Below, one piece after another: positions 1-40,903 of a stretch of DNA of 41,586 bases. The DNA lies in IMG/VR virus record IMGVR_UViG_2778261450_000006, positions 1-41,586 of that record; one strand, 5' to 3'. Each line of letters opens with the position of its first letter. Positions within the stretch are counted from its first letter, which is position 1. The notes under the pieces were generated by a model. That model was not told the origin of the DNA and did no database searches. It was given only the letters and a program-made list of their open reading frames with translations. Position numbers and translations under genes: made by a program. This DNA comes from a virus. Lineage: Duplodnaviria > Heunggongvirae > Uroviricota > Caudoviricetes.

Positions 1-1719
1 ATGATTTTTAGGGATAGCTTGAGAGTATTACCTTATGGTCGAGTAGATAATGATTTCTTCCAGATAGAAGAAAGACGTTCATGGAATGCAGGGCGATATT
101 ATTGGTCTAATAGAAGGATTTTTGGTTATATTGGAATTACTCAATCCAGTAATAAAGAGCTGAAAGATAAGTCGGGGAGAGAGGGATTCATAAGAAACCA
201 GGCTGCAAGAGAACTGAAAACTATTATATCTAATTTGTTAACTGAACTTGCTGATAGATTTTTTGGTTCACGTTCTGATGACCGTAAAGAGCTTTTAGAA
301 CAAGTTAAGCGTGAAAAAGAGTTAAGAAAATCTGCTCAACAACAAGCTCGAAAATCAACACAAAAAAGTTTTTCAGAAGCTTTGAAGAATCAGACACCAG
401 TTCTTGATGCTTCCTTGGAGGCTGTTAAAAGGCTGAAAACTAAGCTTGATAAAACTGATGGTTCGTTAGATTTAAACTATCTTAAAATTATAGACAGTGA
501 TCTTACAAACTTAGATGCGTTGCGCAGTGAAATTAAAACGCCTATCAAACCTCCAAAACTTGGAATGTATGAAGAGAAATATAGAGACTACAGAGATAAA
601 TTTAATGAGTTCTCTGCGTATATTCTACAAATGAAGTTAGCAATTAATAAACTTGATTCTGAATTAAATAAACTTGAGCCTTCATTGTCAGCGAAAAATC
701 ACCTTGAAAAAAATCAAGGTATTATTAATTCTAAACTAACTAAGTTTAATAACACGATAGAGGAGAAGATACATTCTCTTTTAAAAAAATGGGCCGATGA
801 AATAAAGGTTGATCGAAGTGATTATTATGCTAAAACTATATCAGTTGTTGATTCAATAGATAATGATTCACAAATTGAAAATGTGTTTAATTTGCTCGAT
901 AGTTTATATGTTGAGTCAGTTGATACCCTAACTTTCAAATATCAATCAATAATAAAAGGTCTCGATAGATTATTTGAAGGTATAAACTTAGATTCAGCAT
1001 TCTCATTATCTGAAGAAGAACGCTCATATTTTGAAGAAAAAGCTAAAAGTTTAAACGCGCTTGCACAGTTAGGTATTAGTGTTGAGATAATATCTCATGA
1101 ACTTGAAGAAATGGATTCTATGGTAACCAGAGGACTAAACTCTCTTCCTACTTCTGTAAAAGAACACCCTGGTTTTTCATTGGCGTTAAATGCTCACAGA
1201 TCGCTTACTCAACAAATACGTTTCTTATCACCTTTGAAAATATCAGGTTATCAATCCAGGCAGAGAATAACTGGAAAAAATATCATGGATTATGTCCTGA
1301 AGTTCTTTGGGGAGCGTTTCGAACGGCAACGAATAACTATTGAATTTAGTGAAGAGTTTAAGCAAATCGCAATAACAGATATACCATCAAGGATCTATCC
1401 TGTTTTTACTAATATTATCAACAATGCAATGTATTGGGTCAGTCTGTCAAATAATAGGCTCATAAAGATTGGTTTTGTGAATTCTTTGGTTATCATAGCA
1501 AATTCTGGTCCGGCAATTGATACCGATGATATCCCGCGACTATTTGAACTATTTTATAGCAAAAGAGCAAATGGACATGGGGTAGGTCTGTATCTATGTC
1601 GAGAAAACCTTGCTGTTGCACATCATAAAATATGGTATTCAGAACCTGATGAAGGCGATAACTATTTAATAAAAGATGGCGCTAATTTTGTGATCCAGTT
1701 CAATGGAGTGGAGTTCTAA
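1..1719 (+). CDS. Histidine-kinase-like protein (HisKA-like H-box plus GHKL ATPase domain); N-terminal ~380 aa charged and coiled-coil-like; possibly 5'-truncated by window edge
   Basis: ORF begins at base 1. C-terminal third carries H-box-like ISHELEEM, N-box FTNIINNAMYW, G1-like ANSGPAIDTDD and G2 GHGVGLYLCRENL. Stop overlaps start region of the downstream gene. AT-rich. Confidence 0.6.
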   Translation: MIFRDSLRVLPYGRVDNDFFQIEERRSWNAGRYYWSNRRIFGYIGITQSSNKELKDKSGREGFIRNQAARELKTIISNLLTELADRFFGSRSDDRKELLEQVKREKELRKSAQQQARKSTQKSFSEALKNQTPVLDASLEAVKRLKTKLDKTDGSLDLNYLKIIDSDLTNLDALRSEIKTPIKPPKLGMYEEKYRDYRDKFNEFSAYILQMKLAINKLDSELNKLEPSLSAKNHLEKNQGIINSKLTKFNNTIEEKIHSLLKKWADEIKVDRSDYYAKTISVVDSIDNDSQIENVFNLLDSLYVESVDTLTFKYQSIIKGLDRLFEGINLDSAFSLSEEERSYFEEKAKSLNALAQLGISVEIISHELEEMDSMVTRGLNSLPTSVKEHPGFSLALNAHRSLTQQIRFLSPLKISGYQSRQRITGKNIMDYVLKFFGERFERQRITIEFSEEFKQIAITDIPSRIYPVFTNIINNAMYWVSLSNNRLIKIGFVNSLVIIANSGPAIDTDDIPRLFELFYSKRANGHGVGLYLCRENLAVAHHKIWYSEPDEGDNYLIKDGANFVIQFNGVEF

Positions 1720-1720
1720 T

Positions 1721-3469
1721 ATGACAGTGGCAAATTATAATTCTCTTGTCCAGAAAACTTTCTGCGAAAATGCAATTCGTTCCGTTGTCATGATTGATGA
1801 CGATTTTCTGACGTATTCTGAATCAATCAGGGCGTTGAATAACGAAGTTGATTTAGACTACAACAAAATTGACTCATCTAAACGAGCCGCTACTCTTGAG
1901 AGCTTTTTTCAATCTAAAAATATGATTTGTGATGTTGACAATGGTTCTGTTAATTTCGATGTGGATCGGATTAGAAAATCAGATCTTATTATTGTAGATT
2001 ATCATCTTGATAATAATGCACCTGATAAAACACTTAAACTATTACAAGATTTGAAAGACTCCGATCATTTAAATATGATTGTAATATATACTAGAGAGAA
2101 TTTAGAAACGGTTTGGATGCAGATATCATCGACTCTCAAAGGTGCTCTGGATATCAACAGCTTGATCATTGACTACGATAATGAAGATGTCCAAAGTTAT
2201 TGGGAAGACGTTGTATTACCGAACTTAAATGATAATGGTAATAAAGCTCTCACAAGAGATGAAACAATAGCCTATATTAAAGACAGTAAGCCTTGTAGAA
2301 GAATTAAAAGATTAATACATGATGATGCTGTGTTGGAGGATCAAAAGGATAAAAACTTCATTGCAAAAATGATTGCAGAATATGCTGTGTCTAGAAATGC
2401 AATTATTTCTAGCAACACATCTGGCAATGTCATTCGGGGTGATGAAAGCGGAGTAAAATGGATTCAATGTGGTAATATCTTTGTCTCCCTATTTCATAAG
2501 GTTCAAGATGATCATGAAAACGATGGAGATAGGATTTGGCAAACTCTCAATGATTCTCTCATTGAATGGAAACCATCTTATTATCAGTTAATAAAATCTG
2601 AAATTCAGAATGCAATCGAAGCTGAGGCTTTATCTTTTGTAAATCATTTGGCTAACGATCATTACGGTCAAGCTGCGTGGTTAAATGAGATATTAAAATC
2701 AGACTCGCCTGATATTAGATGTAGAAATATTGACTTTGTATTTGGTAATTTATCAGAAGAGCTTTATCAAAGACTTAAAAATAATAATACGCTGGATGAA
2801 TTTATCAAAAGTGTTTTTGATAGCTATTCAAATGAATACGCTAACAGCGGAGTTGCTGCATTGCTCCAATATTGCTCTTCAAAAATGGATCTGCCATCAA
2901 ATAATGATACTTATCACGAAATGTATCATGCTTTAAATATGAATTTGTCTTCAAAGAATTTTGAAGATGGTCATATTTCTACTGGCACTATTTTCTTTGA
3001 TACAGAGTCGAACAAATGGTATTTATGTGTATCTGCGGCATGTGATTTGGTTCCTACTCAGGGTAACGACCCTCACCATGTAAGATTAAGTCCGCACAGG
3101 CTCATTAAAGTTCTGGAGCTTTTTAACGCCAGTCAGAGTAAAGCATTGCCATTTGCTGAACATTCGAAATATATATATGTAATGCATAAAAATCAAAGAA
3201 AATATCTCTCTATTTTCGAAGGGGATAAAACGCTTCCTGTTGTTGATTATATGGTGGTGTTGAATCATGGAACAACAGTTGATGGCGAAGAAAAAAATAT
3301 TATTTCTGCCGTGTTTTTAAGTAATATGGATGGCAACGTGCAAAATGTTCCTGTCCGACTCAAACTTAAATCTCAACTGAGAACTGGTTATGCAGAAAGA
3401 TATCAGGCTATAGCGTCTCAGTATAGCTCAAGGATTGGTGTGGATTATGTATCAATGATGCTACCATAA
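1721..3469 (+). CDS. Receiver (REC) domain protein with ~450-aa C-terminal domain of unknown function (candidate effector)
   Basis: ATG at 1721 preceded by GGAGTGGAG (track ORF starts 1703). N-terminus has REC-like pattern VVMIDDD ... DLIIVDYHLDN ... NMIVIYT. No HTH or other recognisable output domain. Coupled to upstream kinase-like gene. Confidence 0.6.
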   Translation: MTVANYNSLVQKTFCENAIRSVVMIDDDFLTYSESIRALNNEVDLDYNKIDSSKRAATLESFFQSKNMICDVDNGSVNFDVDRIRKSDLIIVDYHLDNNAPDKTLKLLQDLKDSDHLNMIVIYTRENLETVWMQISSTLKGALDINSLIIDYDNEDVQSYWEDVVLPNLNDNGNKALTRDETIAYIKDSKPCRRIKRLIHDDAVLEDQKDKNFIAKMIAEYAVSRNAIISSNTSGNVIRGDESGVKWIQCGNIFVSLFHKVQDDHENDGDRIWQTLNDSLIEWKPSYYQLIKSEIQNAIEAEALSFVNHLANDHYGQAAWLNEILKSDSPDIRCRNIDFVFGNLSEELYQRLKNNNTLDEFIKSVFDSYSNEYANSGVAALLQYCSSKMDLPSNNDTYHEMYHALNMNLSSKNFEDGHISTGTIFFDTESNKWYLCVSAACDLVPTQGNDPHHVRLSPHRLIKVLELFNASQSKALPFAEHSKYIYVMHKNQRKYLSIFEGDKTLPVVDYMVVLNHGTTVDGEEKNIISAVFLSNMDGNVQNVPVRLKLKSQLRTGYAERYQAIASQYSSRIGVDYVSMMLP

Positions 3470-3540
3470 TTATTATATTTTAGGCGTGGTGATTTTTTTT
3501 CGCCATGCCTATTTTATATTTATCATCACAATGATGTTGT

Positions 3541-3957
3541 TTATTTTTGTTTAAGTCTTCTAAGCTTCATGCATTCTAATGAGAATAATAATAGAGTTGT
3601 GCTGTATATAAAGCCAGAGTTAGTTAATAACTTTAAATTTAATGCTTCAGGATTTTCACTGAGAAAGTGAAAGGCATAAACTAAGTATACAGCTAAAGTA
3701 GCCGTTCCAATTGTTGGTCCAATATCGCCTTGATCATGAGGTTCAAGGTTTACATTGAACTTGAAGATTAGCCATTCAAATCCCCAAGTAAAAAAAACAA
3801 CTAATATCATGGCTGCGAATAATTTCGCGATGTTATCTGCTGATGGATTCATCAGAACAGATTGTTTCTGAAAAAATTCACAAAGTGAGAGTCCGAAAAA
3901 AATAAAAAAAAGTGGTCTGGAACTAAATTTTTCAAAAACTTTGAATAGGGTTTCCAT
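3541..3957 (-). CDS. Small multi-pass membrane protein (hypothetical)
   Basis: 138-aa ORF with several hydrophobic stretches (LFFIFFGLSL, AAMILVVFFTWGFEWLIF, TATLAVYLVYAF, FIYSTTLLLFSL). Lies directly downstream of the P4-type integrase on the same strand. Confidence 0.45.
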   Translation of the reverse strand: METLFKVFEKFSSRPLFFIFFGLSLCEFFQKQSVLMNPSADNIAKLFAAMILVVFFTWGFEWLIFKFNVNLEPHDQGDIGPTIGTATLAVYLVYAFHFLSENPEALNLKLLTNSGFIYSTTLLLFSLECMKLRRLKQK

Positions 3958-3995
3958 TTTCTTTACCTTCAGGATTATATTAGCTATTCTGATAC

Positions 3996-5225
3996 TTAGG
4001 CTACCAGAGCATTTGATCTTTGAGCTTGAACGTAATCACTCCACCATTGCATCAAACTCTGTCGCTCTATCAGATATTCTGCACGATTGTATGCTGCGAT
4101 AATTTCATCTTTTTTCGAGTGGGCAAGCGCTGCCTCAAGAACTTCAGCTCTGAATTTACCAGACTCCTCTGCCGCTGTTCGTGCAATAGAACGCATACCG
4201 TGAGCTACAAGCTCGCCTCCGAACCCCATTCGGATGATAGCTGCGTTGGCTGTTTGTTCATGCATATGATTAAGAGGCGCTTTTATGCTGGGGAAAACCC
4301 ATTCTCTATGCCCACTTATTGATTTCATTAATTCAAGGATGCGCAAAGCTTCTTTACTCAAAGGAACTTTGTGAAGCTTTTTCATTTTCATGAAATCAGC
4401 AGGAATGTTCCAAATGCTGTTGGTTGTATCAATATCAGACCACCTTGCGCGAACGGCTTCACCCGGACGAACCCATGTCAACAATTGCCATTCAATTAGC
4501 ATACGTGTTTCCAACCGGATTGACGCATTCGTCAAAGATTCCATAAACCTTGGCAATTCGCTTGGGGGAAGGGCAGGCATATTTTGCTTTTTTGGTTTAC
4601 TGAATCTTTGACCAAGGTTGTCAGCCGGGTTGAACTCAATAAGTTCTTCAGTAGCTGCCCACCGGAAGATTTCATTCAGACGTGAAATGATACGGCGTAG
4701 AGTTTCCAATACGCCTCGTTGCTCAATAGGATCAAGGTGTTGTTTTAAGAGCTTAGGTCGGATCTCATTGATAGGGACATTACCCAGACCGGGAAAGACA
4801 TTTCTCTCTAAGCTGCGCCAGATGTCTGCTGCATGGTCTTGTGAGATACCTGATGTCTTTACCTTCTCATCTAACCATTTCCGCGCTACGGCTTGGAGAG
4901 TGTGCTCAGTAGCACTCTTTAATGCCTTCGCCTTATCGTTGTTATGGATTTGGGGATCAACACCATTTGCCAGAAAGGAGAGATATTCATCACGTAAGGC
5001 TCTGGCTCTTGCAAGGGTAAGGTGAGGATATGTCCCAAGGCTCATTTTGGTTCTTTTCTTGCTCACTGGTACTGCATACCTGAAATACCAATTTTTCTTG
5101 CCTCCTTTCGCCAAAGGAGCGATTCGTAGAATCAGACCATCACCGTCAAACAAGTTGATTTCTTTATCGGCTGGCTTGGTGCTTTTGATTTCAGTGTCAG
5201 TGAGCTTCTTAGCGATTTTTGCCAT
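3996..5225 (-). CDS. intA: P4-type tyrosine integrase (IntA/CP4-57-like)
   Basis: N-terminus MAKIAKKLTDTEIKSTKPADKEINLFDGDGL and C-terminal HGMRS...AHS...AYNRAEYL..QWW motifs typical of P4-family integrases. Start chosen at the internal ATG (5223-5225) with GAGGG RBS; track ORF extends to 5267. Adjacent to the 45-bp ssrA 3' fragment. Confidence 0.85.
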   Translation of the reverse strand: MAKIAKKLTDTEIKSTKPADKEINLFDGDGLILRIAPLAKGGKKNWYFRYAVPVSKKRTKMSLGTYPHLTLARARALRDEYLSFLANGVDPQIHNNDKAKALKSATEHTLQAVARKWLDEKVKTSGISQDHAADIWRSLERNVFPGLGNVPINEIRPKLLKQHLDPIEQRGVLETLRRIISRLNEIFRWAATEELIEFNPADNLGQRFSKPKKQNMPALPPSELPRFMESLTNASIRLETRMLIEWQLLTWVRPGEAVRARWSDIDTTNSIWNIPADFMKMKKLHKVPLSKEALRILELMKSISGHREWVFPSIKAPLNHMHEQTANAAIIRMGFGGELVAHGMRSIARTAAEESGKFRAEVLEAALAHSKKDEIIAAYNRAEYLIERQSLMQWWSDYVQAQRSNALVA

Positions 5226-5390
5226 TTTGGGACCCTCGGTTTTTGGACCCTTCTTAATGGGTCCCATTCAGGGTGCCATAACTCGTAGTTCTCAGCAATT
5301 CTCACTGGACGACAATAGACGTAAAAAAGCCCGCAGAGCTTGTGCTGTGTGGGCTTAGTAGACTTCATTGAACTTCAAACAACTAAAAAG

Positions 5391-5435
5391 TGGTGGAGCT
5401 GGCGGGAGTTGAACCCGCGTCCGAAATTCCTACAT
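5391..5435. repeat. 45-bp direct repeat identical to the 3' end of ssrA (att core; prophage attR and original island att)
   Basis: tggtggagctggcgggagttgaacccgcgtccgaaattcctacat is identical to 40527-40571; flanks diverge on both sides. Confidence 0.9.
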
Positions 5436-5528
5436 ACCATTTTCACTATAACAAAAACATTAACTTGCGTTTAAAATCATCAAGTTAGTATTATCTTATG
5501 TTTGTCCGTTTTACTCATTTTTAATGCT

Positions 5529-5548
5529 CTGTCGCCAATCTGTCGCCA
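5529..5548 (+). repeat. Two direct copies of CTGTCGCCA 11 bp apart (candidate integrase arm-type sites)
   Basis: ctgtcgcca at 5529-5537 and 5540-5548; the same 9-10-mer recurs as an inverted pair at 40430-40468 near the other prophage end. Confidence 0.4.
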
Positions 5549-5550
5549 CA

Positions 5551-6201
5551 TTATCCGCTGCTTGAGTTGAAATCTGTGGGTTTACGGAGATTAGATCTTA
5601 TGGTTTTTTCAGCGATACGAATAGTCGAAAATTTATGCAGGTTCATCAGTGCTATACAAATCCCAAGTGCAAAAAAGTAGCTGGACATTCCTAATCTTTG
5701 CATATCAGTAAGTTTATTAATTTTCTCTAAAATATGTTGGGTTACTAATCCTTCGTATACAAAAGGTATGGAAGTTATAAAACCGCCAATAAAATAGAAT
5801 GTTAAGCTTATCAGCTTTATAGATTTTCTATATATCCAAAAGCGATATCTTTTTTTTGTCCATTTAAATATTTGTTTTTCACTACTAATAGAAATTAGTT
5901 TTTGACACTTGCTATAGTTATCAATGTCATTAACTGGATCGTTAACACCTAAAAGAATCTCTCTCTGTTCTGGAGTTAGGTTCTTATCTTTTGTTATTGC
6001 AGCAATACCATAATTATATGCAACTTTCTTGATTTTGGGATCTTCAGTATTCTTATATAGATTGTATGCAAACTCGCTAATGTTTTTGCGCGAGTTGAAA
6101 ATCTTATCTTTGGGGAAAACCCAGCCGGATCTTACCGCGAGCATCTGTATGATCGGGGTAATTATCGCGACAGAATACTTAATTATCTCGTTTATGTTCA
6201 T
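5551..6201 (-). CDS. AT-rich cargo protein with C-terminal transmembrane segments (hypothetical; moron between attR and int)
   Basis: 216-aa ORF, lysine-rich and AT-rich, hydrophobic segments LISLTFYFIGGFITSIPFVY and MSSYFFALGICIALM. Not part of the canonical P2/186 gene set at this position. Confidence 0.5.
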   Translation of the reverse strand: MNINEIIKYSVAIITPIIQMLAVRSGWVFPKDKIFNSRKNISEFAYNLYKNTEDPKIKKVAYNYGIAAITKDKNLTPEQREILLGVNDPVNDIDNYSKCQKLISISSEKQIFKWTKKRYRFWIYRKSIKLISLTFYFIGGFITSIPFVYEGLVTQHILEKINKLTDMQRLGMSSYFFALGICIALMNLHKFSTIRIAEKTIRSNLRKPTDFNSSSG

Positions 6202-6215
6202 GATCCATTGTTTAC

Positions 6216-7232
6216 TTAAATTAAGTTATAAAGAGGGTTTTTTGTTACTGCATCCTCCAGGTGGTCTGGAGAGAAGTGTGCATAAATCATCGTCATTTTA
6301 ATATCTGAGTGCCCTAAAATATCACGTAAAACGAGTATGTTCCCACCGTTCATCATAAAATGGCTGGCAAATGTATGGCGCAGGACGTGGGTGCATTGGC
6401 CTTCCGGTAGTTCAATACCGGCCCGTTTTACCGCCCGTTCAAAGGCTTTTCTGCATGGTGTGAATAATTTCCCTCGGTTTTTGGGTAGCTCGTTGTACAG
6501 ATCCTGAGATATCGGTACGGTACGGTTTTTTTTACCCTTGGTCTTTGTATAGGTAATCCGGTATTTCGATAGTTGATGGCCCTGCAGGTTTTCAGCTTCA
6601 CTCCAACGAGCACCGGTTGCTAGGCATATTTTTGCAATCATTAGCAGACTGGGGCTTTGAGAATCAGCACAGGCATCCAGCAGACGTTTAATTTCCTCCG
6701 GGGTTAGGAACGCCAGTTCACCCTCCGTAATTTTAAATGTTGGAAGCCCGGCAAGCGGGTTGGGGGCTGACCAGTGGCCCAGCTTTTTCAGTGTACCAAA
6801 AACAGATGATAGGTTGCGCTGTTCAAGGTTTACCGTGCGGGGCTTAACGGGTGACATGAACGAGCCGTCTTCATTTTGGACCTCCCCCTTTAATCTGGCT
6901 TCCCGATATTTTGTGAAATCACCTGCTGTCAGCTCAGAGGCGATGGGATCGCCTAGACCATTACAGATAATTCTAAGTTTCGCCATCAGGCGTTTGGGGT
7001 CTGCGAGTGTTTGACCATATAGGGAATACCACTGCTCAATCACTTCTGATAATCGCCGCCGATCTTCCTTCTCACCAAGCCATGGCTTTTTGTTTACTTC
7101 GTTCATGGTGAAGTTTTCGAATGCTATGGCTTCGCCTTTCGTGGCAAATTGCTTACGCACGCGCTTGCCATTGCGTCCATTGGGATAGCACTCACACAAC
7201 CATTTTCCGTTCGGCTGTTTTCTGATGGTCAT
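6216..7232 (-). CDS. int: P2/186-family tyrosine integrase
   Basis: 338 aa; GRNGKRVRKQF...AFE N-terminus and C-terminal LATGARWSEA ... HVLRHTFASHFMMNGG ... LGHSDIKMTMIYAHF catalytic region, as in P2 Int. Confidence 0.9.
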   Translation of the reverse strand: MTIRKQPNGKWLCECYPNGRNGKRVRKQFATKGEAIAFENFTMNEVNKKPWLGEKEDRRRLSEVIEQWYSLYGQTLADPKRLMAKLRIICNGLGDPIASELTAGDFTKYREARLKGEVQNEDGSFMSPVKPRTVNLEQRNLSSVFGTLKKLGHWSAPNPLAGLPTFKITEGELAFLTPEEIKRLLDACADSQSPSLLMIAKICLATGARWSEAENLQGHQLSKYRITYTKTKGKKNRTVPISQDLYNELPKNRGKLFTPCRKAFERAVKRAGIELPEGQCTHVLRHTFASHFMMNGGNILVLRDILGHSDIKMTMIYAHFSPDHLEDAVTKNPLYNLI

Positions 7233-7233
7233 A

Positions 7234-7866
7234 TCAAAGGCTCTTAATGATTTTCAGTGCACGGCCTACTACCTCAATGTCATCCAGGCCACACTCAAAC
7301 GATGAATCATCCTGATGCACTACTAATCTGTTTCCCGGGAGTCGAGTCAATTTAACAATGCTTTTTATCCCGTCGATATCGACTAACCACATACCATTCA
7401 CTGGTGGTGTTTGGTTGCGATCTATTAAATAAGAATCACCAGAAGTAGTCACCAGCAGTAGGTTGCTTGAGTCTGAGGGGAGTATGCTGCTATCAATGAT
7501 TGCTTTTCCAGCATCGACCAATAAACCACCGTTGAGAGTCGCCTTGTCAATTTCAGGAGATACTAGTTCAGAAAGAGGTACAACCTTGCTGGAGTTCACG
7601 GAATTGATATTTTTTTTAGGTTCAATGTTTGGACCTGGCTCCCCCTGTCCGGTGGTTAGCCACAGTAAAGAAACTCCTGTTTCCAAGGCGCACTGAATCA
7701 CCCACTCTGCAGGAAAACTATCTCTTAAGTATCTGTTTGCCATGGTGCTTTTTGATGCGCCTAAGTGATCGCAAAGTTGCTGTCTGGACTTGAAATCATA
7801 GGCTGCCATTAGTCTATGGATAGCTTCTCTTCCCCCTGTATTCTCTCCAGCCTTTACCTGTATCAT
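7234..7866 (-). CDS. cI: CI-type immunity repressor (186 CI-like)
   Basis: 210 aa directly upstream of int on the same strand, divergent from apl/cII; N-terminal motif QCALETGVSLLWLTTGQG resembles 186 CI. Confidence 0.8.
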   Translation of the reverse strand: MIQVKAGENTGGREAIHRLMAAYDFKSRQQLCDHLGASKSTMANRYLRDSFPAEWVIQCALETGVSLLWLTTGQGEPGPNIEPKKNINSVNSSKVVPLSELVSPEIDKATLNGGLLVDAGKAIIDSSILPSDSSNLLLVTTSGDSYLIDRNQTPPVNGMWLVDIDGIKSIVKLTRLPGNRLVVHQDDSSFECGLDDIEVVGRALKIIKSL

Positions 7867-10061: not shown

Positions 10062-10360
10062 CAAGGGCAGTGCGTATCCATCAATTAAAAATTGCACCTA
10101 AGTATTTCAACGCTGTGGTTGCAGGTCAAAAGACGGCTGAACTTCGTAAAGACGATCGTGGCTATAAAGTTGGTGATGTTCTTTCTCTTTGCGAATGGAA
10201 GCATGGCGTATTTACGGGTAGGGAATGGGCCGCTGTTATCTCTCATGTGCTTCCGGTTAATGACGTCATGGCAGTTTCAGAACAATGGGTGATGCTATCA
10301 ATTCGCCCATTAACTCCATTAGAAGCTTTGGGATATGTTATTGCAGGAGGTGCTGTATGA
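10058..10360 (+). CDS. Hypothetical protein, possibly ASCH-like/DUF3850 fold
   Basis: 100-aa ORF starting at ATG 10058 with GGAGG RBS; start and stop junctions overlap neighbours (ATGA). Confidence 0.5.
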
Positions 10361-11214
10361 GCACCATCCTGAAATGGGCAGGTAATAAAACTGCCATTAT
10401 GTCCGAACTGAAAAAACATCTTCCTGCTGGCCCGCGACTGGTTGAACCTTTCGCGGGTTCCTGTGCTGTGATGATGGAGACGGATTACCCCAGCTATCTT
10501 GTTGCGGATATTAATCCTGATTTAATCAACCTCTATAAAAAGGTTGCTGCTGATTGTGAATCGTTTATATCTCGCGCCAGAGTTTTATTTGAGATCGCAA
10601 ACAGGGAGGTGGCTTATTACAACATAAGGCAGGAGTTTAATTACTCAACTGAAATTACTGATTTCATGAAAGCGGTATATTTCCTGTATCTAAATCGTCA
10701 CGGTTACCGTGGTTTATGTCGCTATAACAAGAGCGGGCATTTCAACATTCCCTACGGTAATTATAAAAATCCGTATTTCCCTGAAAAAGAAATTCGCGCA
10801 TTTGCAGAAAAAGCCCAGCGAGCAACGTTTATCTGCGCCAGCTTTGATGAAACGCTGGCGATGTTGAAAGCGGGGGATGTGGTGTATTGCGATCCGCCGT
10901 ATGACGGTACGTTTTCCGGCTATCACACTGACGGCTTCACTGAAGATGACCAGTATCACCTGGCATCTGTTCTTGAACATCGGTCATCAGAAGGACATCC
11001 GGTCATTGTTTCTAACAGTGACACATCCCTGATCCGTTCGCTGTATCGCAATTTTACTCACCACTACATCAAGGCAAAACGCAGCATCGGTGTGGCAGCT
11101 GGCGAGGGTAAATCAGCAACAGAAATCATTGCTGTTTCCGGGCCGCGCTGCTGGGTGGGATTTGATTATTCGCGTGGCGTGGATAGTTCTGCCGTGTACG
11201 GAGTACGTGCATGA
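10357..11214 (+). CDS. dam: Orphan DNA adenine methyltransferase (Dam family)
   Basis: Start [18 protein letters not shown] (AdoMet-binding) and DPPY catalytic motif; no adjacent restriction endonuclease gene. Confidence 0.85.
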
Positions 11215-13777: not shown

Positions 13778-13966
13778 ATGCAGGACTATTTTTTGGAGTC
13801 TTTGAAGCTCCAGCGCATTGATTTTTTTCTTAAGCTTGTAGCGGCTAGTGAGTGTAGTGATGAAGAGAAGGGGCTGGCCCTGCAGTGGGTTTCTGAACTG
13901 ACAGATGAACTCATGGCAAAAATCAGAACCCACGAATACAACCGCTCAATGGATGTCATCAGCTGA
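13778..13966 (+). CDS. Small SOS-controlled protein, candidate Tum-like antirepressor N-terminal module
   Basis: 62-aa ORF with AGGAGG RBS directly downstream of the LexA box; position corresponds to 186 tum. Confidence 0.45.
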   Translation: MQDYFLESLKLQRIDFFLKLVAASECSDEEKGLALQWVSELTDELMAKIRTHEYNRSMDVIS

Positions 13967-13976
13967 GGTGACTTTT

Positions 13977-14210
13977 ATGCGCATTGAAATAATGATCGAT
14001 AAAGAGCAGAAGATTAGCCAGTCTACCCTGGACGCTCTGGAGTCAGAGCTTTACCGCAACCTGCAACCCATCTATCCCAAGACAGCTATCCGCATCCGTA
14101 AAGGGTCGGCAAACGGCGTTGAGCTGAGTGGCTTAAAGCTTGATGAAGACAAAAAGCGGGTGATGGAAATTATGCAGCAGGTTTGGGAAGACGACAGCTG
14201 GCTGCACTAA
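13977..14210 (+). CDS. dinI: DinI-family protein
   Basis: MRIEIMIDKEQKISQSTLDALESEL...EDKKRVMEIMQQVWEDDSW resembles E. coli DinI; ATG 13977 with GAGGTG RBS (track ORF starts 13905). Confidence 0.75.
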   Translation: MRIEIMIDKEQKISQSTLDALESELYRNLQPIYPKTAIRIRKGSANGVELSGLKLDEDKKRVMEIMQQVWEDDSWLH

Positions 14211-14283
14211 GGAACGTTCCTGATGTAAGAACTTGATTCTGACGTCAGCAAGGTTGAACAACGAGAGTAGCGAGGCGTTAGCC

Positions 14284-14544
14284 ATGGGTAAAAAAGACAG
14301 TAATCACCAGATTATTTATCGGGGCCAGGTGCTGGAACGGTTTACCCCTGGCGGCTGGGTCTTCTTTCAACGCCCAAAGGAGTGTGGCGGAGGTTTTTGG
14401 TTGGGCCGCACCTATGAAGACTGCTTCTGGCTTGAGCTGGAATTCCCCGTTTCGCTATATGACGGCCTGGAGTTTTTGATGGAAGTCACCAGGGTAGAGC
14501 AGAGAAGTGATGAGGTTGACGCGAATTATTCCCTGTTTGATTAA
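14284..14544 (+). CDS. Hypothetical protein
   Basis: 86-aa ORF from ATG 14284 (track ORF starts 14233); no recognisable motif. Confidence 0.4.
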   Translation: MGKKDSNHQIIYRGQVLERFTPGGWVFFQRPKECGGGFWLGRTYEDCFWLELEFPVSLYDGLEFLMEVTRVEQRSDEVDANYSLFD

Positions 14545-14592: not shown

Positions 14593-15204
14593 ATGGATTT
14601 AGTCTTTAAAATTCTGGCTTCGTTGGGTGGGGTGTCTTTTGTTGCATCTGGCATATTTGTTTGGATCGGGAAAGTTTATTTAGAAAGATATAAGTCGCGG
14701 CTAAACAAAGATATTGCTGAATTTCAATCACAACTGAGTGCAACTAATGAAAGAATAAAGGCTAAGTTAGACAATTCTGTTTATGTAACGAAAGCGTATT
14801 TTGATAAGGAGTTATCAGCATATAGTCTCATTTGGAATTCGATGTTTGAAACCAGAGAAAGCGTGCTTAAGCTGAGGCCTGCGCTGGATCATTTTGACCC
14901 CAACGAACCATTTGAAGAGAGAAAATTTAGAAGGTTGAAAGTTTTTTTCGATGCATTTAATACTTTTGTTACAAGTGTTGAGTCTAACAAACCGTTCATC
15001 TCACCAGAGGTTTATATAATCTTGGACCGTTTCCGGAAGGAATGCCTTTCAGAGTCAATATCGTTTCAGCATGGCGATCCAGAATTTGACTGGCAAAATT
15101 ATTGGAAAGAGGCAGAGTTGAACCGTACAACCATCACCAAGCTTTTTGATGAGACGTGTGATGCAATTCGAGACAGGATGCACACATTAACTGTGGTTAC
15201 GTAG
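14593..15204 (+). CDS. Membrane-anchored protein of unknown function (single N-terminal TM helix; cargo)
   Basis: 203 aa, hydrophobic N-terminus ILASLGGVSFVASGIFVWIG followed by a soluble domain; AT-rich; followed by a terminator. Confidence 0.5.
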   Translation: MDLVFKILASLGGVSFVASGIFVWIGKVYLERYKSRLNKDIAEFQSQLSATNERIKAKLDNSVYVTKAYFDKELSAYSLIWNSMFETRESVLKLRPALDHFDPNEPFEERKFRRLKVFFDAFNTFVTSVESNKPFISPEVYIILDRFRKECLSESISFQHGDPEFDWQNYWKEAELNRTTITKLFDETCDAIRDRMHTLTVVT

Positions 15205-15535: not shown

Positions 15536-16450
15536 ATGCCATACCAATTGGTAGAGCTTAGCCCCGTAGCTAACGATCTTGAACAGTTAGGAACCAAAGA
15601 GAAGTTTTGGTTCTATTTCTCCGATGACACTGTAAATTTGCAGTTGTTTAAGTACTCTAGGCCAGGTACTGGCGAGCATTGGTCTGAAAAGTGTGCTGCT
15701 GAGTTATGTCATTTGCTTAACATTCCACATGCTAGCTATGATTTGGCGCGATACAATGGTCGATTCGGTGTGGTGACTCAGAATATCATTCCATCTGGTT
15801 TCCGGATGGTAATGGGAAATGAAGTGCTTCACAGTTCGACATTCGATTATCCTGGGCCTTTACAAGCCGGGGAAAAGCCGGTAAGGGTCAGAGAACACAC
15901 TGTCACAAGGGTATTGGGTTGTTTGGATAGGGAATCTATCAAGCCTCCTCCGAGTGTATATGATCTAACCGGGCTAAATGCAGCAGATGTATTTTGTGGA
16001 TATTTGATGCTCGATGCACTTGTGAGTAATCAAGATCGCCATCATGAAAATTGGGCGATCATGCTTAACAATGAAACTGGTGAGCAGTTTTTGTGTCCAA
16101 CATACGATCATGCCGCTAGTTTAGGAAGGGAGATGTTAGATGATGAGCGTAACGAACGGCTTAATACTAAAGATAAAAATCGACAAATCCCATGTTTTGT
16201 AAGAAAAGCTCGCTCTGAGCTATTCAAAGCAAAAACTGATAAAAAGCCCTTGCTGACCGTTGAAGCATTTCAACATGCAGTTGAAGGGAGAGTTGCCGCT
16301 CGCGACCATTGGTTAGGTAAGTTGAGCGTTTTAACAGAAGATTCCATTACAGATGTGTTTAACCAAGTGCCTTCATCGTGTATATCCGACAGTGCACGTA
16401 GATTTGCAACGTTAATGGTAATGGAAAATCGCAGAAGGTTACTAGAATGA
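15536..16450 (+). CDS. HipA-like serine/threonine kinase core (lacks HipA N-terminal subdomain)
   Basis: P-loop-like GTKEKF near N-terminus and catalytic motif LDALVSNQDRHHENWAIM matching the HipA D-x-H-x-x-N region; YDHAASLG follows. AT-rich leader. Confidence 0.7.
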   Translation: MPYQLVELSPVANDLEQLGTKEKFWFYFSDDTVNLQLFKYSRPGTGEHWSEKCAAELCHLLNIPHASYDLARYNGRFGVVTQNIIPSGFRMVMGNEVLHSSTFDYPGPLQAGEKPVRVREHTVTRVLGCLDRESIKPPPSVYDLTGLNAADVFCGYLMLDALVSNQDRHHENWAIMLNNETGEQFLCPTYDHAASLGREMLDDERNERLNTKDKNRQIPCFVRKARSELFKAKTDKKPLLTVEAFQHAVEGRVAARDHWLGKLSVLTEDSITDVFNQVPSSCISDSARRFATLMVMENRRRLLE

Positions 16451-17187
16451 CTAATACAAACTCCGTTTACGTCGCATGGCAGGCACCAGATACCAGAGAC
16501 TGGCATGTTGTTGGTAACTTGCAAGAGCGCAAATCGGGGTATGTTTTCAGGTATACCAAAGGTGCTCTTAAATCTACTAAATTTACAAAGTTTAGCGGCA
16601 TGAGTGATGTTCGTGAAACTTATGTTTCGGAAGAATTGTTTCCTCTTTTTAAAAATCGCCTTTTATCACCGAGACGTCCAGAGTATCCGAGTTTCATTAA
16701 ATGGCTTGGATTTGAAGAAGATAAGGTAAATCCTATCGATATTCTTGCTCGCTCGGGAGGCTTACGAAGCACTGATCAGCTGCAGATTTTCAAAAAAATT
16801 GATGTTGATTCTGATGGTAACTTTGAGCATTTTTTCTTCTTACATGGACTTGGTTACTTAAATAGCTTAGCTAATGCTCGTGTATCTGAATTGAAACCGG
16901 GGCAAATTTTGCGTCTTTGCTTGGATCTTCAAAATGAATACGATGGGGATGCTGTTGTCGTTCGTGCAGATAAACCAGCTGAAATCGTTGGTTACTGCCC
17001 TAGGTATTTAAGTAATGATATCAAGAAGATGTTATTGGATGATCCAAAATCAATCACTTTAACGGTCGAAAAGATTAGCGATGATGCTCCTCATAACTAT
17101 CGGTTATTATGTAAATTATCAGGAGTACTAAGCCAAGCCTGTCAATCGACGCTGATTCCTCAGGATGAGTTTGAACCTATTGAGTAA
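16447..17187 (+). CDS. HIRAN-domain protein with N-terminal HipA-N/HipS-like region
   Basis: C-terminal LKPGQILRLCLDLQNEYDGDAVVVRADKPAEIVGYCPRYL matches the HIRAN signature; start overlaps kinase stop (ATGA). Confidence 0.65.
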   Translation: MTNTNSVYVAWQAPDTRDWHVVGNLQERKSGYVFRYTKGALKSTKFTKFSGMSDVRETYVSEELFPLFKNRLLSPRRPEYPSFIKWLGFEEDKVNPIDILARSGGLRSTDQLQIFKKIDVDSDGNFEHFFFLHGLGYLNSLANARVSELKPGQILRLCLDLQNEYDGDAVVVRADKPAEIVGYCPRYLSNDIKKMLLDDPKSITLTVEKISDDAPHNYRLLCKLSGVLSQACQSTLIPQDEFEPIE

Positions 17188-25613: not shown

Positions 25614-26600
25614 TTACTCTTTGTAAATTCGATCTGGCTCGTTGTACTCTATTTCTCTCAGTCGACCATTTTTAATGGTGAAATTACCTTTTTCTGATTT
25701 AAATTCCCCACCACATTTACAAGGCTTGTTATCAGAAAGAGTGTAGTTTTTTAGTATTAGTTCATCATCGTTGTCAAAGGTGGGGATTATTTTTTTAGTT
25801 TCAGCGCATTGCGTGCACTTAACTTGCAATTCCGGGAGTGTGGTACAAGCTGTAAGGCTCAGTTCGACATTCTCTGGAACAATGTAATATCCTAGCAATG
25901 GTGTCCCACGACTTTCTGAAACACCTTTGTATGTATTGGTTATGCCTCCAATAAATGCAAGGATTTCATCATACGCTTGAGTATTACGCATTGTTACCCA
26001 GCAATCTCGATCTTCATAACTATACTCACGACCTGCAACGCAAATTGCTGTAACGTAACGAAAGTCTTCTTTGTATATTTTTTTATACCTTTCGGCTTCA
26101 GTAATTCCATTTGGTGATAAGTCACTACTTAGAGCAAATATTACCGAGCGAAGTTTCTCTATTTTGTGTTGGATTAGTTTGCCTGATTCATCTTTTATTC
26201 CAGGTAAGTAACCGAATTTCTCATTAAGTTCTTTTGCACTTGAGTGTGCAGAGCTGAGTTCCGATGAACTTAATGTGGTTTTTACCTCAATGGTATATAG
26301 AACTGATTCTATTGGGAATAACCCTGTGGCACCATCGATTAATATCGGAGGGAGTATTGATTTATTGTAAATAATAATATCTATTTGAGGTGATAACTTT
26401 CCTGAATACTGTTCAATGATTTGCCCTGTGCCAATGCCAACATCTGCGGGCAAAAGAGGTCGAAATAGTTGACTTAATAATATTTCTAGAACAGCTCCCT
26501 TAACACCCTGGTGGGAAAATCCTGCAGCACTTTTGGCTTGAGCAATCGCCGATTCGACCTTCCCTCTAAGTAAAGCCTGATACTGGTTCTTATTTTTCAT
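25614..26600 (-). CDS. Cargo protein: PD-(D/E)xK-like nuclease fold with C-terminal zinc-ribbon (candidate anti-phage defence gene)
   Basis: 328-aa antisense ORF between S and V, strongly AT-rich against a GC-rich late operon. Motifs PQIDIIIYN ... ESVLYTIEVKT (D ... E-x-K) and C-terminal CTQCAETKK ... CKCGG cysteine cluster. Confidence 0.6.
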   Translation of the reverse strand: MKNKNQYQALLRGKVESAIAQAKSAAGFSHQGVKGAVLEILLSQLFRPLLPADVGIGTGQIIEQYSGKLSPQIDIIIYNKSILPPILIDGATGLFPIESVLYTIEVKTTLSSSELSSAHSSAKELNEKFGYLPGIKDESGKLIQHKIEKLRSVIFALSSDLSPNGITEAERYKKIYKEDFRYVTAICVAGREYSYEDRDCWVTMRNTQAYDEILAFIGGITNTYKGVSESRGTPLLGYYIVPENVELSLTACTTLPELQVKCTQCAETKKIIPTFDNDDELILKNYTLSDNKPCKCGGEFKSEKGNFTIKNGRLREIEYNEPDRIYKE

Positions 26601-39901: not shown

Positions 39902-39922
39902 AACCTGCTACGGCAGGTTTTT
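39902..39922. terminator. Rho-independent terminator after ogr (possibly bidirectional)
   Basis: aacctgc-tacg-gcaggtt stem-loop followed by TTTATT; also closes the convergent minus-strand gene. Confidence 0.6.
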
Positions 39923-40403
39923 ATTCATCTGGGATCTCACCCGTTTCAAGAAAATGTATAAAGCCAGGCTCATCTATGATGATAGTGCCTTTCATCCTGG
40001 CTGCCGATACTTTTGATGGGCCTGCATTGTAACCGCAACAGAGCATCTGAAGGTTTTGGGTTACAGATGTTCTTACCGTTAATCCTTGTTCATTCGCCTT
40101 ATCAACCAACCTTTCTTTATCTGCTTTCTTAAATCCGGTGAAACACACATCGAATGTATTTTTTTTCGGACCTGACTGCTTAGTGAGATGTGAGTAGTTT
40201 TCGGGGAGGAATGACGCGCATTCCTGAATGGCTTGTTCTTGTGAATCGTATTGTTTAAGAATGCGGTCTTTTCGGAAGGTTTTTATTCGATCGGTGTTCT
40301 TACAAATGCCCTGTATGTGATTTTCGCTATAACTGATGCTCTGTATTGAGTGAACACCGATACGACCATTTGCATTGATGTAAACAAAGTGAAGTTCTTC
40401 CAT
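39921..40403 (-). CDS. Cargo protein with WYL-like N-terminal region and BRCT-like C-terminal domain
   Basis: 160 aa, AT-rich, between ogr and attL. N-terminal RIKTFRKDRI resembles the WYL signature; C-terminal CFTGFKKADKERLVDKANEQGLTV ... GTIIIDEPGFIHFL resembles a BRCT fold. Confidence 0.5.
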   Translation of the reverse strand: MEELHFVYINANGRIGVHSIQSISYSENHIQGICKNTDRIKTFRKDRILKQYDSQEQAIQECASFLPENYSHLTKQSGPKKNTFDVCFTGFKKADKERLVDKANEQGLTVRTSVTQNLQMLCCGYNAGPSKVSAARMKGTIIIDEPGFIHFLETGEIPDE

Positions 40404-40429: not shown

Positions 40430-40468
40430 ATGGCGACAGGCAAGATGGACGCAAAAGTCTGTCGCCAT
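40430..40468. repeat. Inverted pair of CTGTCGCCAT (candidate integrase arm-type sites or hairpin) near attL
   Basis: atggcgacag (40430-40439) and ctgtcgccat (40459-40468); same motif as the direct repeats at 5529-5548. Confidence 0.4.
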
Positions 40469-40484
40469 TTTGCCGCCACTACCT

Positions 40485-40518
40485 AAGAAAAAGGGGCTAC
40501 GCTTTCACGTAACCCCTT
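40485..40518 (-). terminator. ssrA rho-independent terminator (supplied by the prophage side of attL)
   Basis: On the minus strand, 9 nt past the tmRNA 3' end: 11-bp stem (one G-U pair), 6-nt loop, then UUUUUCU. Confidence 0.55.
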
Positions 40519-40526
40519 GATTTATT

Positions 40527-40571
40527 TGGTGGAGCTGGCGGGAGTTGAACCCGCGTCCGAAATTCCTACAT
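40527..40571. repeat. 45-bp att core (3' end of ssrA), direct repeat of 5391-5435
   Basis: Exact 45/45 identity; it is the 3'-terminal 45 nt of the tmRNA gene. Confidence 0.9.
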
Positions 40572-40767
40572 CCTCGGTACTACATGCTTAGTCAGTCTTT
40601 ACATTCGCTTGCCAGCTGCGGACGGACACGCCACTAACAAACTAGCCTGATTAAGTTTTAACGCTTCAACCCCAGGCAGGGCTTCCACGCGATCTCTTTT
40701 GGGTTTGACCTCTCTTGATCCCCGTCCTAAGAGCGGAGGCTAGGGAGAGAGGGCTCTAAGCAGGTTA

Positions 40768-40800
40768 TTAAGCTGCTAAAGCGTAGTTTTCGTCGTTTGC
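40768..40800 (-). other. tmRNA tag-peptide reading frame (ANDENYALAA, stop)
   Basis: Minus-strand GCA AAC GAC GAA AAC TAC GCT TTA GCA GCT TAA inside ssrA. Confidence 0.9.
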
Positions 40801-40903
40801 GACTATTTTTTGCGGCTTTTTACGAGGCCAACCGCCCCTCGGCATGCACCTTGGGTTTCGCAAATCCCGTCGAATCCAGAATCAGCCCCAATGTGTAAAG
40901 GTA

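What the first reader, a model, noticed from the sequence alone, without database searches (positions are those of the whole stretch)
5436..6215. Membrane-protein moron between attR and the integrase gene
A 216-aa AT-rich gene with two C-terminal hydrophobic helices is wedged between the att core and int, where P2-family genomes normally have int almost adjacent to attP. It is oriented like int and cI, so it could be expressed in the lysogen as a lysogenic-conversion or exclusion function.
Basis: inference. Interest (0 to 1): 0.5.

Follow-up and report, generated by a model that had tools for sequence, protein, structure and literature searches.

The report
Uncharacterised membrane-protein cargo gene after prophage integrase
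A real, conserved gene for a small inner-membrane protein of unknown family sits as swappable cargo at the end of the repressor-integrase operon of a 186/Fels-2-like prophage, in a slot already known to hold anti-phage genes; it is a reasonable untested candidate for protecting the lysogen from other phages.

Summary
Window 5551..6201 (-) is a 216-aa ORF with GC 0.33 against 0.47 for int. It lies 14 nt after int and directly before the int-proximal attP arm of a prophage (about 5436-40526) integrated in ssrA. It is a real gene: dN/dS is 0.07 against the Cronobacter allele, and 94 representative homologues share its architecture. It has three TM helices, not two, and a roughly 100-aa basic, conserved cytoplasmic domain.

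Salmonella phage SEN8 joins int directly to the att arm, so the ORF is a 665-bp insertion. Phage 186 has Orf69 in this slot, and 41 of 56 sampled relatives carry some low-GC cargo there, including a dCTPase defence gene. A 2026 paper already lists int-att as a minor P2 defence hotspot.

The family has no Pfam, NCBIfam or PADLOC match, PHROG 21256 is 'unknown function', and no fold match was found. It recurs downstream of cI in three different operon layouts. It also survives as an orphan, or with a fragment of int or an intact cI-int module, in decayed prophages.

Best reading: lysogen-expressed anti-phage membrane protein (about 0.55 overall; exclusion type preferred). The function is untested. 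Interest is moderate.

The parts
5551..6201 (-). ORF216, the cargo gene. It encodes a 216-aa predicted inner-membrane protein with TM1 at about 6-28, a basic cytoplasmic helical domain at about 29-126, TM2 at about 128-149, a short periplasmic loop, TM3 at about 171-190 and a cytoplasmic tail.
   Evidence: ORF list; hydropathy and charge distribution; PHROG 21256 at E=2.7e-69, annotated 'unknown function'; homologues; dN/dS 0.07; AF2 models with pLDDT 78.7 for the full length and 90.7 for the domain.
6202..6215 (-). 14-nt spacer between the int stop codon and the ORF216 start. There is no clear Shine-Dalgarno sequence and no promoter-like site, so co-transcription with int is implied.
   Evidence: Sequence and promoter scan. 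The same 14-nt spacing occurs between int and Orf69 in phage 186 and in the Cronobacter locus.
5436..5550 (.). int-proximal attP arm. It is conserved in phages that lack the ORF. It ends in two direct arm-type repeats, TGTCGCCAAT (5530-5539) and TGTCGCCACA (5541-5550), which abut the ORF216 stop codon.
   Evidence: Alignment with SEN8, where the int stop sits where the ORF216 stop sits here. Blastn matches to Felsduovirus phages and to Escherichia phage Cartapus. Repeats read; only the second repeat was returned by the pattern search, which also found two sites in the other arm. One search gives the 186 arm-site consensus.
5391..5435 (-). att core: the displaced copy of the last 45 nt of ssrA at the int-proximal prophage junction.
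   Evidence: Exact 45-bp direct repeat with 40527-40571.
5327..5341 (-). Terminator-like hairpin just beyond the att core. It is inferred to be the native ssrA terminator and the likely end of the cI-int-ORF216 transcript in the lysogen.
   Evidence: Terminator scan. Its role is inferred.
6216..7232 (-). int, a P2/186-type tyrosine integrase and the upstream gene of the operon.
   Evidence: Pfam Int_N and Phage_integrase. It is 94% identical to SEN8 int.
7234..7866 (-). cI, a 186-type immunity repressor and the first gene of the lysogenic operon.
   Evidence: Pfam Phage_CI_repr and Phage_CI_C.
40527..40889 (-). Intact ssrA (tmRNA) gene at the other prophage junction. Its last 45 nt are the second att core copy.
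   Evidence: ARAGORN and the direct repeat.
40491..40518 (-). Strong phage-supplied terminator (12-bp stem) just after the ssrA 3' end. In the excised attP form it would lie directly downstream of ORF216 and attP, like the annotated lysogenic-operon terminator of phage 186.
   Evidence: Terminator scan and the 186 annotation. The equivalence is inferred.

Best explanation
ORF216 is horizontally acquired cargo in the variable slot between int and the attP arm of a 186/Fels-2-like prophage that integrates in ssrA. It is the last gene of the cI-int-X lysogenic operon. It would therefore be made in the lysogen at repressor-maintenance level, and by analogy with 186 pE more strongly while lysogeny is being established.

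The product is a three-pass inner-membrane protein, N-terminus out and C-terminus in. Its most conserved parts, a roughly 100-aa basic helical domain and the C-terminal tail, face the cytoplasm.

Most likely role: protection of the lysogen against other phages.

Preferred mechanism (inferred, not shown): non-lethal exclusion. The conserved cytoplasmic domain, held at the inner face of the membrane by the TM helices, would bind a conserved partner there. That partner could be a host component used for genome entry or the entering DNA itself. The variable periplasmic loop may set specificity.

Shown: anatomy, operon position, cargo status, purifying selection, recurrence downstream of cI, and the defence content of the slot.

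Inferred: expression, topology, the anti-phage role and the mechanism.

The confidence of 0.35 is for the exclusion-type reading. 'Anti-phage in some way' is about 0.55. 'Accessory cargo co-transcribed with cI-int' is about 0.9.
For: 1. Exact insertion relative to SEN8; the att arm is also conserved in Fels-2, RE2010 and Cartapus, which lack the ORF.
2. Low GC of 0.33.
3. The slot is polymorphic: 15 empty against 41 occupied in 56 relatives, all sampled cargo at GC 0.30-0.36 except an IS-disrupted slot at 0.44.
4. The same slot holds a dCTPase defence gene (PADLOC E=2e-146) and a dCTP-deaminase-like plus ThyX pair in relatives.
5. The literature names int-att as a minor P2 defence hotspot holding 3% of P2 systems. 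It also reports that 6 of 8 unknown-function loci from P4 hotspots protected against phages (PMC13586616).
6. This prophage already carries candidate defence cargo at both classical hotspots: PDC-M03 A/B at 15536-17187 and a NucC-like PD-DExK nuclease at 25614-26600.
7. Family members sit downstream of cI in three layouts: cI-int-X, cI-X without int, and cI-156aa-235aa-X. A Burkholderia homologue follows a methylase/PDDEXK/Vsr island.
8. The gene persists when the phage decays. E. coli LR-33 keeps only apl, a truncated cII pseudogene, cI-int-ORF216 and ORF160. A Buttiauxella genome keeps an int fragment plus X. K. quasipneumoniae, Orbaceae and Enterobacter have chromosomal orphans.
9. dN/dS is 0.07.
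10. Mean pairwise identity is 0.67 for the cytoplasmic domain and 0.77 for the tail, against 0.38 for the periplasmic loop. Net positive charge of the domain is conserved, median +7.
11. A precedent in a P2-related phage: K139 glo, an exclusion/immunity gene of a P2-related phage whose cI-int interval is described as a hotspot (Nesper 1999 as cited there).
Against: - There is no functional evidence of any kind.
- There is no hit in PADLOC v2 (2023), Pfam, NCBIfam or the PDB sequences, and no fold match.
- Guilt by location is weak. Only about 3% of P2 defence systems map to this slot, and most cargo found there in this survey is itself unannotated.
- Several homologues are chromosomal orphans among metabolic genes with no defence neighbours.
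- A conserved cytoplasmic domain is not what is expected of a protein that meets phage tail or ejection proteins in the periplasm.
- Expression from pL is inferred by analogy with 186, not measured. The ribosome-binding site is poor.
Confidence: 0.35

Rival explanations
1. Abortive-infection type. The protein is a one-polypeptide sensor and effector. On infection, the C-terminal two-TM hairpin with its interfacial W-K-x-K helix oligomerises and depolarises the membrane, killing or arresting the cell before progeny phage are made.
For: - Same context evidence as the best explanation.
- A weak profile match of residues 116-194 to the two-TM pore domain of the NaK channel aligns the interfacial helix and both TM helices (E=0.05).
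- The architecture is a cytoplasmic domain plus a TM hairpin.
Against: - The NaK match is not significant. There is no T-V-G-x-G filter, and the inter-helix loop is unconserved and shortened in distant homologues.
- There is no PADLOC effector hit.
- The putative 'sensor' domain is the most conserved part, which is unusual for an arms-race sensor.
- A constitutively co-expressed pore former with no partner gene would be risky, yet orphan copies are stably kept.
Confidence: 0.2
2. Lysogenic conversion unrelated to phages. The membrane protein changes an envelope or physiological property of the host, such as stress tolerance, transport or colonisation. That is why chromosomal orphan copies are retained.
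For: - Orphan copies lie among metabolic or housekeeping genes in K. quasipneumoniae (245 member sequences; GC 0.45 in a locus of GC 0.62), Orbaceae and Enterobacter.
- Purifying selection.
- No defence-family hit.
Against: - No enzymatic, transporter or signal domain was detected.
- The strongest recurrent association is with cI and the lysogeny module, and with a slot that holds defence genes.
- The allele is rare: 2 of 5426 E. coli genomes.
Confidence: 0.2
3. Accessory to the phage's own life cycle. For example, it might modulate the lysis-lysogeny decision, CII or Int stability through a membrane protease, or induction.
For: It is co-oriented with and adjacent to cI and int. If a 186-like pE promoter exists, it would be expressed strongly during establishment of lysogeny.
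Against: - It is absent from most close relatives whose int is 92-97% identical, and is replaced there by unrelated cargo or by nothing.
- It occurs with cI genes only 52-65% identical, and without int.
- Orphan copies persist without any phage.
Confidence: 0.1

Closest known systems
int-att accessory/defence hotspot of P2-like prophages (PMC13586616, NAR 2026) and the P2/P4 hotspots of Rousset et al. 2022 (PMC9122126)
   Same: [quoted passage not shown]
- The locus is polymorphic among syntenic relatives.
- The cargo is low in GC.
- A known defence gene (dCTPase) sits in the same slot in a relative.
   Different: - ORF216 matches no catalogued defence system.
- In this ssrA-int lineage the slot is occupied far more often (41 of 56) than the '3% of systems' figure suggests.
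- Most of that cargo is unannotated.
Phage 186 Orf69 (CP69)
   Same: - It is in the same slot, on the same strand, 14 nt after int.
- It lies upstream of attP and of the annotated terminator of the lysogenic operon.
- Its function is unknown.
   Different: It is an unrelated sequence of 83 aa (BLASTP E=42).
Vibrio phage K139 Glo
   Same: It is an exclusion/immunity gene carried by a P2-related temperate phage. Rousset et al. describe the cI-int interval of K139-like phages as a hotspot.
   Different: - Glo is described as a periplasmic protein. That it lies between cI and int is from Nesper 1999 and my own knowledge, not from the passages read here.
- ORF216 is a three-TM protein after int.
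- No homology to Glo was tested here.
Membrane superinfection-exclusion and Abi proteins of temperate phages: P22 SieA/SieB, lambda RexB, HK97 gp15, T4 Imm (from general knowledge)
   Same: They are small, phage-encoded inner-membrane proteins. The prophage-encoded ones are expressed in the lysogen from or near the immunity region, and several act as single genes.
   Different: - No Pfam or PADLOC hit to any of these families.
- The three-TM layout with a central, conserved, basic cytoplasmic domain of about 100 aa has no recognised counterpart.
PHROG 21256
   Same: Full-length match at E=2.7e-69. This is the family's existing catalogue entry.
   Different: The PHROG carries no function, so membership adds no mechanism.

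Membership tests
P2-like int-att accessory/defence hotspot cargo | The gene lies between the integrase gene and the att site, inside the element boundaries. | tested here: met
   The core repeats are at 5391-5435 and 40527-40571, and the ORF at 5551-6201 lies between the core/arm and int.
P2-like int-att accessory/defence hotspot cargo | The locus is variable (empty or with different cargo) among relatives that are otherwise syntenic. | tested here: met
   SEN8 has an empty slot. Of 56 IMG/VR relatives, 15 are empty and 41 are occupied by at least five cargo classes.
P2-like int-att accessory/defence hotspot cargo | Recognised defence systems occur at the same slot. | tested here: met
   L116 carries dCTPase (PADLOC PDLC02373, E=2.2e-146). 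L078 carries a DCD-like gene plus ThyX. See also PMC13586616.
P2-like int-att accessory/defence hotspot cargo | The gene confers an anti-phage phenotype. | not testable with these tools
   This needs plaque and efficiency-of-plating assays.
Catalogued anti-phage defence systems (PADLOC-DB v2.0.0) | A significant HMM match to a system component. | tested here: not met
   0 families at E<=1. The database dates from 2023, so later systems are not covered.
Known superinfection-exclusion/Abi membrane protein families (SieB, Imm, RexB and others in Pfam) | Sequence homology to a curated family. | tested here: not met
   No Pfam family at E<=0.01 for the query or for 34 homologues. NCBIfam gave none.
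Known superinfection-exclusion/Abi membrane protein families (SieB, Imm, RexB and others in Pfam) | Prophage-encoded, membrane-located and expressed in the lysogen. | tested here: inconclusive
   Three TM helices are predicted. The position at the 3' end of the cI-int operon implies expression. No transcript data were available.
Two-TM tetrameric cation channels (NaK/KcsA type) | A significant sequence match and a selectivity-filter motif T-V-G-x-G after a pore helix. | tested here: not met
   The best E-value is 0.05. The filter position aligns to 'skiv.ek'. The loop is the least conserved region and is shortened in distant homologues.
Winged-helix / HTH DNA-binding domains | A structural match of the helices 55-98 plus the beta-hairpin 103-114 to a wHTH fold. 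| tested here: not met
PHROG 21256 | A full-length HMM match. | tested here: met
   E=2.7e-69, residues 5-207 against profile positions 7-209 of 222. The family is annotated 'unknown function'.
Phage 186 Orf69 | Sequence homology, beyond positional equivalence. | tested here: not met
   BLASTP E=42. Positional equivalence is met.

The most novel reading that the evidence does not exclude
ORF216 founds a new single-gene anti-phage family. It would be a membrane-anchored protein with a previously undescribed cytoplasmic fold, carried at the 3' end of the repressor operon of 186-like phages. It would be retained by hosts as the last functional piece of decayed prophages. It would act at the inner face of the membrane by a mechanism unlike known Sie or Abi proteins. 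By extension, the other unannotated cargo families that fill this slot (395-408 aa, 363-366 aa and 509-514 aa) would form a largely unexplored reservoir of defence genes.
Probability: 0.4. Interest if true: 0.55.

Novelty: new member of a known kind. Interest (0 to 1): 0.4.

Why it matters
If ORF216 protects the lysogen, it adds a compact single-gene membrane system with no known relatives to the defence catalogue. It would also show that the int-att slot of ssrA-integrating 186-like phages is a densely used cargo site rather than a marginal one. About three quarters of the sampled relatives carry something there, mostly unannotated.

Retention of cI-int-ORF216 in a decayed prophage, and of X alone or with an int fragment elsewhere, would illustrate how hosts domesticate prophage cargo. 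If it is not defensive, it remains an ordinary moron of unknown function.

Tried and rejected
1. Homology routes that gave nothing:
- Pfam on the query and on 34 homologues.
- NCBIfam.
- PADLOC.
- tblastn against 50,697 phage records.
- Profile search against PDB sequences, which gave only the NaK match at E=0.05.

2. Fold routes that gave nothing specific:
- Foldseek against BFVD, no hit at E<=0.001.
- The afdb50 library was unavailable.

3. K+ channel membership was rejected. There is no filter motif, the loop is unconserved and the E-value is not significant.

4. A winged-helix DNA-binding domain was rejected as a membership claim because there is no structural match. A nucleic-acid-binding role for the basic domain is not excluded.

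5. I considered a two-gene system split across attP, pairing ORF216 with ORF160 at 39921-40403. It was rejected. ORF160 is in 170 E. coli genomes and in phage Cartapus without ORF216, whereas ORF216 is in 2 genomes.

6. Homology to 186 Orf69 was rejected.

7. Domain fusions gave no hint. The long 'homologues' P0068, P0099 and P0112 are spurious repeat matches to large proteins carrying LRR, NACHT or linker-histone domains.

8. Scans of genome contigs with the broad alignments failed for lack of a conserved stretch. The scan with the close family found only one species-representative genome.

9. Contexts of several distant homologues were short metagenome contigs and were uninformative.

Full report
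**Observation**

The window holds a prophage bounded by an exact 45-bp direct repeat of the ssrA 3' end, at 5391-5435 and 40527-40571. The complete tmRNA gene is at 40527..40889 on the minus strand.

Just inside the 5391-5435 junction lies the ORF 5551..6201 (-), 216 aa with an ATG start. It is followed upstream, on the same strand, by a P2/186-type integrase (6216..7232) and a 186-type CI repressor (7234..7866).

The ORF has GC 0.33 and GC3 0.33, against 0.47 for int. The structural genes are 0.50-0.63.

Hydropathy shows three hydrophobic helices, at about 6-28, 128-149 and 171-190.

The 29-126 segment carries 21 Lys/Arg and a net charge of +10, which places it in the cytoplasm. The predicted topology is N-terminus out, C-terminus in.

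RefSeq annotates a shorter 197-aa product that starts at an internal Met. The N-terminal helix is conserved in homologues, so the 216-aa reading is preferred.

**It is a real gene**

- There are 28 close clusters at 51-100% identity, plus one at 33%, in Escherichia, Cronobacter and Klebsiella.
- An exhaustive profile search finds 94 representatives at E<=1e-3. Almost all are 200-230 aa with the same layout. They include sequences from Orbaceae, Rahnella, Enterobacter and Burkholderia.
- Against the 82%-identical Cronobacter allele, dN/dS is 0.07.

**It is an insertion at a defined slot**

Salmonella phage SEN8 (a Felsduovirus) has an int 94% identical in protein. It matches the att core and arm up to window position about 5550 and then continues directly into int.

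Its int stop codon lies exactly where the ORF216 stop codon lies here. ORF216 plus a 14-nt spacer, 665 bp in all, is therefore inserted between the int stop and the outermost arm-type repeats. Those repeats are TGTCGCCAAT at 5530-5539 and TGTCGCCACA at 5541-5550. The pattern search returned the second of these, plus two similar sites in the other arm at 40460-40481.

**The slot is not normally empty**

Phage 186 carries Orf69 (83 aa) at the same place, also 14 nt after int and on the same strand. Its record annotates the terminator of the lysogenic operon beyond attP. Orf69 is unrelated to ORF216.

I fetched the 80 best IMG/VR loci encoding this int lineage (92-97% identity) and measured the distance from the int stop to the ssrA core. 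The core was found in 56 loci:

| Distance from int stop to core | Loci | Content |
|---|---|---|
| 117 bp | 15 | empty |
| 1306-1360 bp | 17 | 395-408 aa proteins |
| 1143-1182 bp | 10 | 363-366 aa membrane proteins |
| 1652-1668 bp | 8 | 509-514 aa proteins |
| 764-786 bp | 2 | ORF216 family |
| more than 1700 bp | 4 | other |

All sampled cargo has GC 0.30-0.36, except the IS-disrupted slot of L073 at 0.44. The sample was not dereplicated.

- One of the 'other' slots holds a dCTPase defence gene (PADLOC E=2.2e-146).
- Another holds a dCTP-deaminase-like gene plus ThyX.
- The three abundant classes have no convincing Pfam hit and no PADLOC hit.

[quoted passage not shown] It also reports that 6 of 8 unknown-function loci from P4 hotspots protected against phages (PMC13586616).

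In E. coli complete genomes, 220 of 5426 carry this int lineage, but only two carry this ORF216 allele.

**Expression (inferred)**

There is no promoter-like site between int and ORF216, and the gap is 14 nt. By analogy with 186, the gene would be the last cistron of the pL/pE transcript cI-int-X.

In the lysogen, a terminator-like hairpin at 5341-5327 follows the att core. I infer it to be the native ssrA terminator. In the excised form, a strong phage-supplied hairpin at 40518-40491 would follow attP.

**Recurrent linkage to the lysogeny module**

- Homologues follow int in Cronobacter turicensis, Klebsiella and many IMG/VR prophages. There int is 87-94% identical, but cI is only 52-65% and the cargo only 51-82% identical.
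- A 33%-identical homologue directly follows a 280-aa CI with no int between them.
- In Rahnella a 30%-identical homologue is the third gene after CI.
- In Burkholderia ubonensis a 23%-identical homologue follows a C5-methylase, a DUF2357/PDDEXK gene and Vsr.

**Persistence without the phage**

- E. coli LR-33 has lost the replication and structural genes. It keeps ssrA, ORF160, a truncated cII pseudogene, apl, cI, int and ORF216 at 99.7-99.9% identity.
- A Buttiauxella genome keeps an int fragment next to the gene.
- K. quasipneumoniae has an orphan copy with 245 member sequences and GC 0.45 in a locus of GC 0.62. Orbaceae and Enterobacter asburiae also have orphan copies among chromosomal genes.

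**What the protein looks like**

The full-length AlphaFold2 model has pLDDT 78.7. The cytoplasmic domain alone, residues 27-127 modelled with 32 diverse homologues, has pLDDT 90.7 and pTM 0.75. It consists of four helices and a beta-hairpin.

The only sequence hint is a non-significant match (E=0.05) of residues 116-194 to the two-TM pore domain of NaK. It aligns the W-K-x-K interfacial helix and both TM helices. There is no selectivity filter, and the loop is unconserved.

Conservation is highest in the parts that face the cytoplasm. Mean pairwise identity is 0.67 for the domain and 0.77 for the C-terminal tail, against 0.38 for the periplasmic loop. The domain's positive charge is conserved, with a median of +7 across 32 homologues.

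The invariant residues cluster in the motif [YL]-G-x-A-A-[LI]-T-[KG]-D-x-x-L-[TS]-x-x-Q-R.

**Interpretation**

I consider the cargo status and operon position well established, at about 0.9.

The function is not established. The context favours a lysogen-protective, anti-phage role at about 0.55:
- the slot holds defence genes;
- the prophage is loaded at both classical hotspots;
- the linkage to cI recurs in different layouts;
- the gene is retained in prophage remnants.

Within that reading I prefer non-lethal exclusion at the inner face of the membrane (0.35) over an abortive, pore-forming mode (0.2). Three points support the preference:
- the conserved part looks like a docking module for a conserved partner rather than a fast-evolving sensor;
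- the channel resemblance fails its defining test;
- a lone, constitutively expressed pore former would be hazardous.

This preference is weak. Phage-unrelated lysogenic conversion (0.2) is kept alive by the chromosomal orphans. A role in the phage's own lysogeny (0.1) is disfavoured, because close relatives lack the gene or carry unrelated cargo instead.

**Comparison with known systems and novelty**

In kind, this is a moron in an already described hotspot. The positional precedents are 186 Orf69 and the K139 glo exclusion gene.

It is not a member of any catalogued defence, Sie or Abi family, of the K+ channels, or of the wHTH proteins. Each was tested and failed. It belongs to PHROG 21256, which has no assigned function.

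I rate it a new member of a known kind, of moderate interest. A specialist would not be surprised by cargo here. The family is, however, uncharacterised, compact, widespread and easy to test. The survey also shows that the slot is much busier in this lineage than the literature figure implies.

Noticed in passing
window 15536-17187 (+): A two-gene pair in the GpA-portal hotspot. A 304-aa HipA_C-like protein matches PADLOC candidate system PDC-M03 component A (E=2e-122). A 246-aa HIRAN-domain protein matches component B (E=3e-93). Just upstream are unannotated ORFs at 14233-14544 and 14593-15204, and a DinI-like gene at 13905-14210.
   Followed up: partly
window 25614-26600 (-): A low-GC (0.37-0.39) 328-aa gene inserted among the tail and late genes on the opposite strand. 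It matches DUF6602 and a PD-DExK / NucC-like nuclease model in PADLOC (E=7e-32). It is likely cargo of the tail-region hotspot.
   Followed up: partly
window 39921-40403 (-): A 160-aa ORF on the other side of attP. In the lysogen it lies directly downstream of ssrA and its phage-supplied terminator. In the excised form it would follow ORF216 and attP on the same strand. It shows weak BRCT and PDC-S48 C-terminal similarity. Phage records annotate it inconsistently as 'exonuclease', 'DNA ligase' or hypothetical. It is present in 170 E. coli genomes, independently of ORF216.
   Followed up: partly
window 1-5267: A second element lies in tandem at ssrA. It has a P4-type integrase (3996-5267, -), a 138-aa hydrophobic ORF (3541-3957, -) and an AT-rich pair: HEF_HK/HATPase_c (1-1719) and Response_reg_2 (1703-3469). 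Neither matches PADLOC. In E. coli SCU-172 the equivalent position holds a P4-like satellite with a NACHT gene.
   Followed up: partly
window 6195-6215 (ORF216 start region): Relative to the Cronobacter allele (ATGGATCTGAAC...), the E. coli allele has a 1-nt insertion (ATGGATCATGAAC...). This puts the ancestral ATG out of frame, leaving a 9-codon upstream ORF, and creates the present ATG 7 nt downstream. No clear Shine-Dalgarno sequence precedes either start.
   Followed up: partly
L128 (E. coli LR-33, NZ_AP027523.1 1221151-1230158): A prophage remnant of about 3.7 kb lies between ssrA and ypjA. It keeps only ORF160, a truncated cII, apl, cI, int and ORF216. The replication and structural genes are deleted.
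   Followed up: partly
L046-L125 (IMG/VR relatives), slot downstream of int: Three abundant unannotated cargo families occupy the int-att slot. They are 395-408 aa proteins (17 of 56; shared motif RYSVAGLPCLYLG), 363-366 aa membrane proteins (10 of 56; motif SSVPLAxIVNNIHRT) and 509-514 aa proteins (8 of 56). None has a convincing Pfam hit or any PADLOC hit.
   Followed up: partly
L037 5655-6339; L126 4875-5540: In L037 the ORF216 homologue is preceded by a fragment that encodes the C-terminal end of int (EDAVTKNPL...) and a P4-integrase fragment, downstream of a different cargo gene. In a Buttiauxella MAG it is preceded by an int fragment only. This suggests the cargo moves or survives together with the int 3' end.
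   Followed up: no
L003/L004 (K. quasipneumoniae), gene at 6001-6624: An orphan homologue (64% identity) lies between a FAD monooxygenase and a LysR regulator, with no phage genes nearby. Its GC of 0.45 is intermediate between the phage copies (0.33-0.35) and the surrounding locus (0.62), which suggests long residence and partial amelioration.
   Followed up: partly
window 10285-11214 (+): A Dam-type N6-adenine methyltransferase (orphan-MTase model, E=3e-111) lies in the early operon upstream of the replication gene, as in related 186-like prophages.
   Followed up: no
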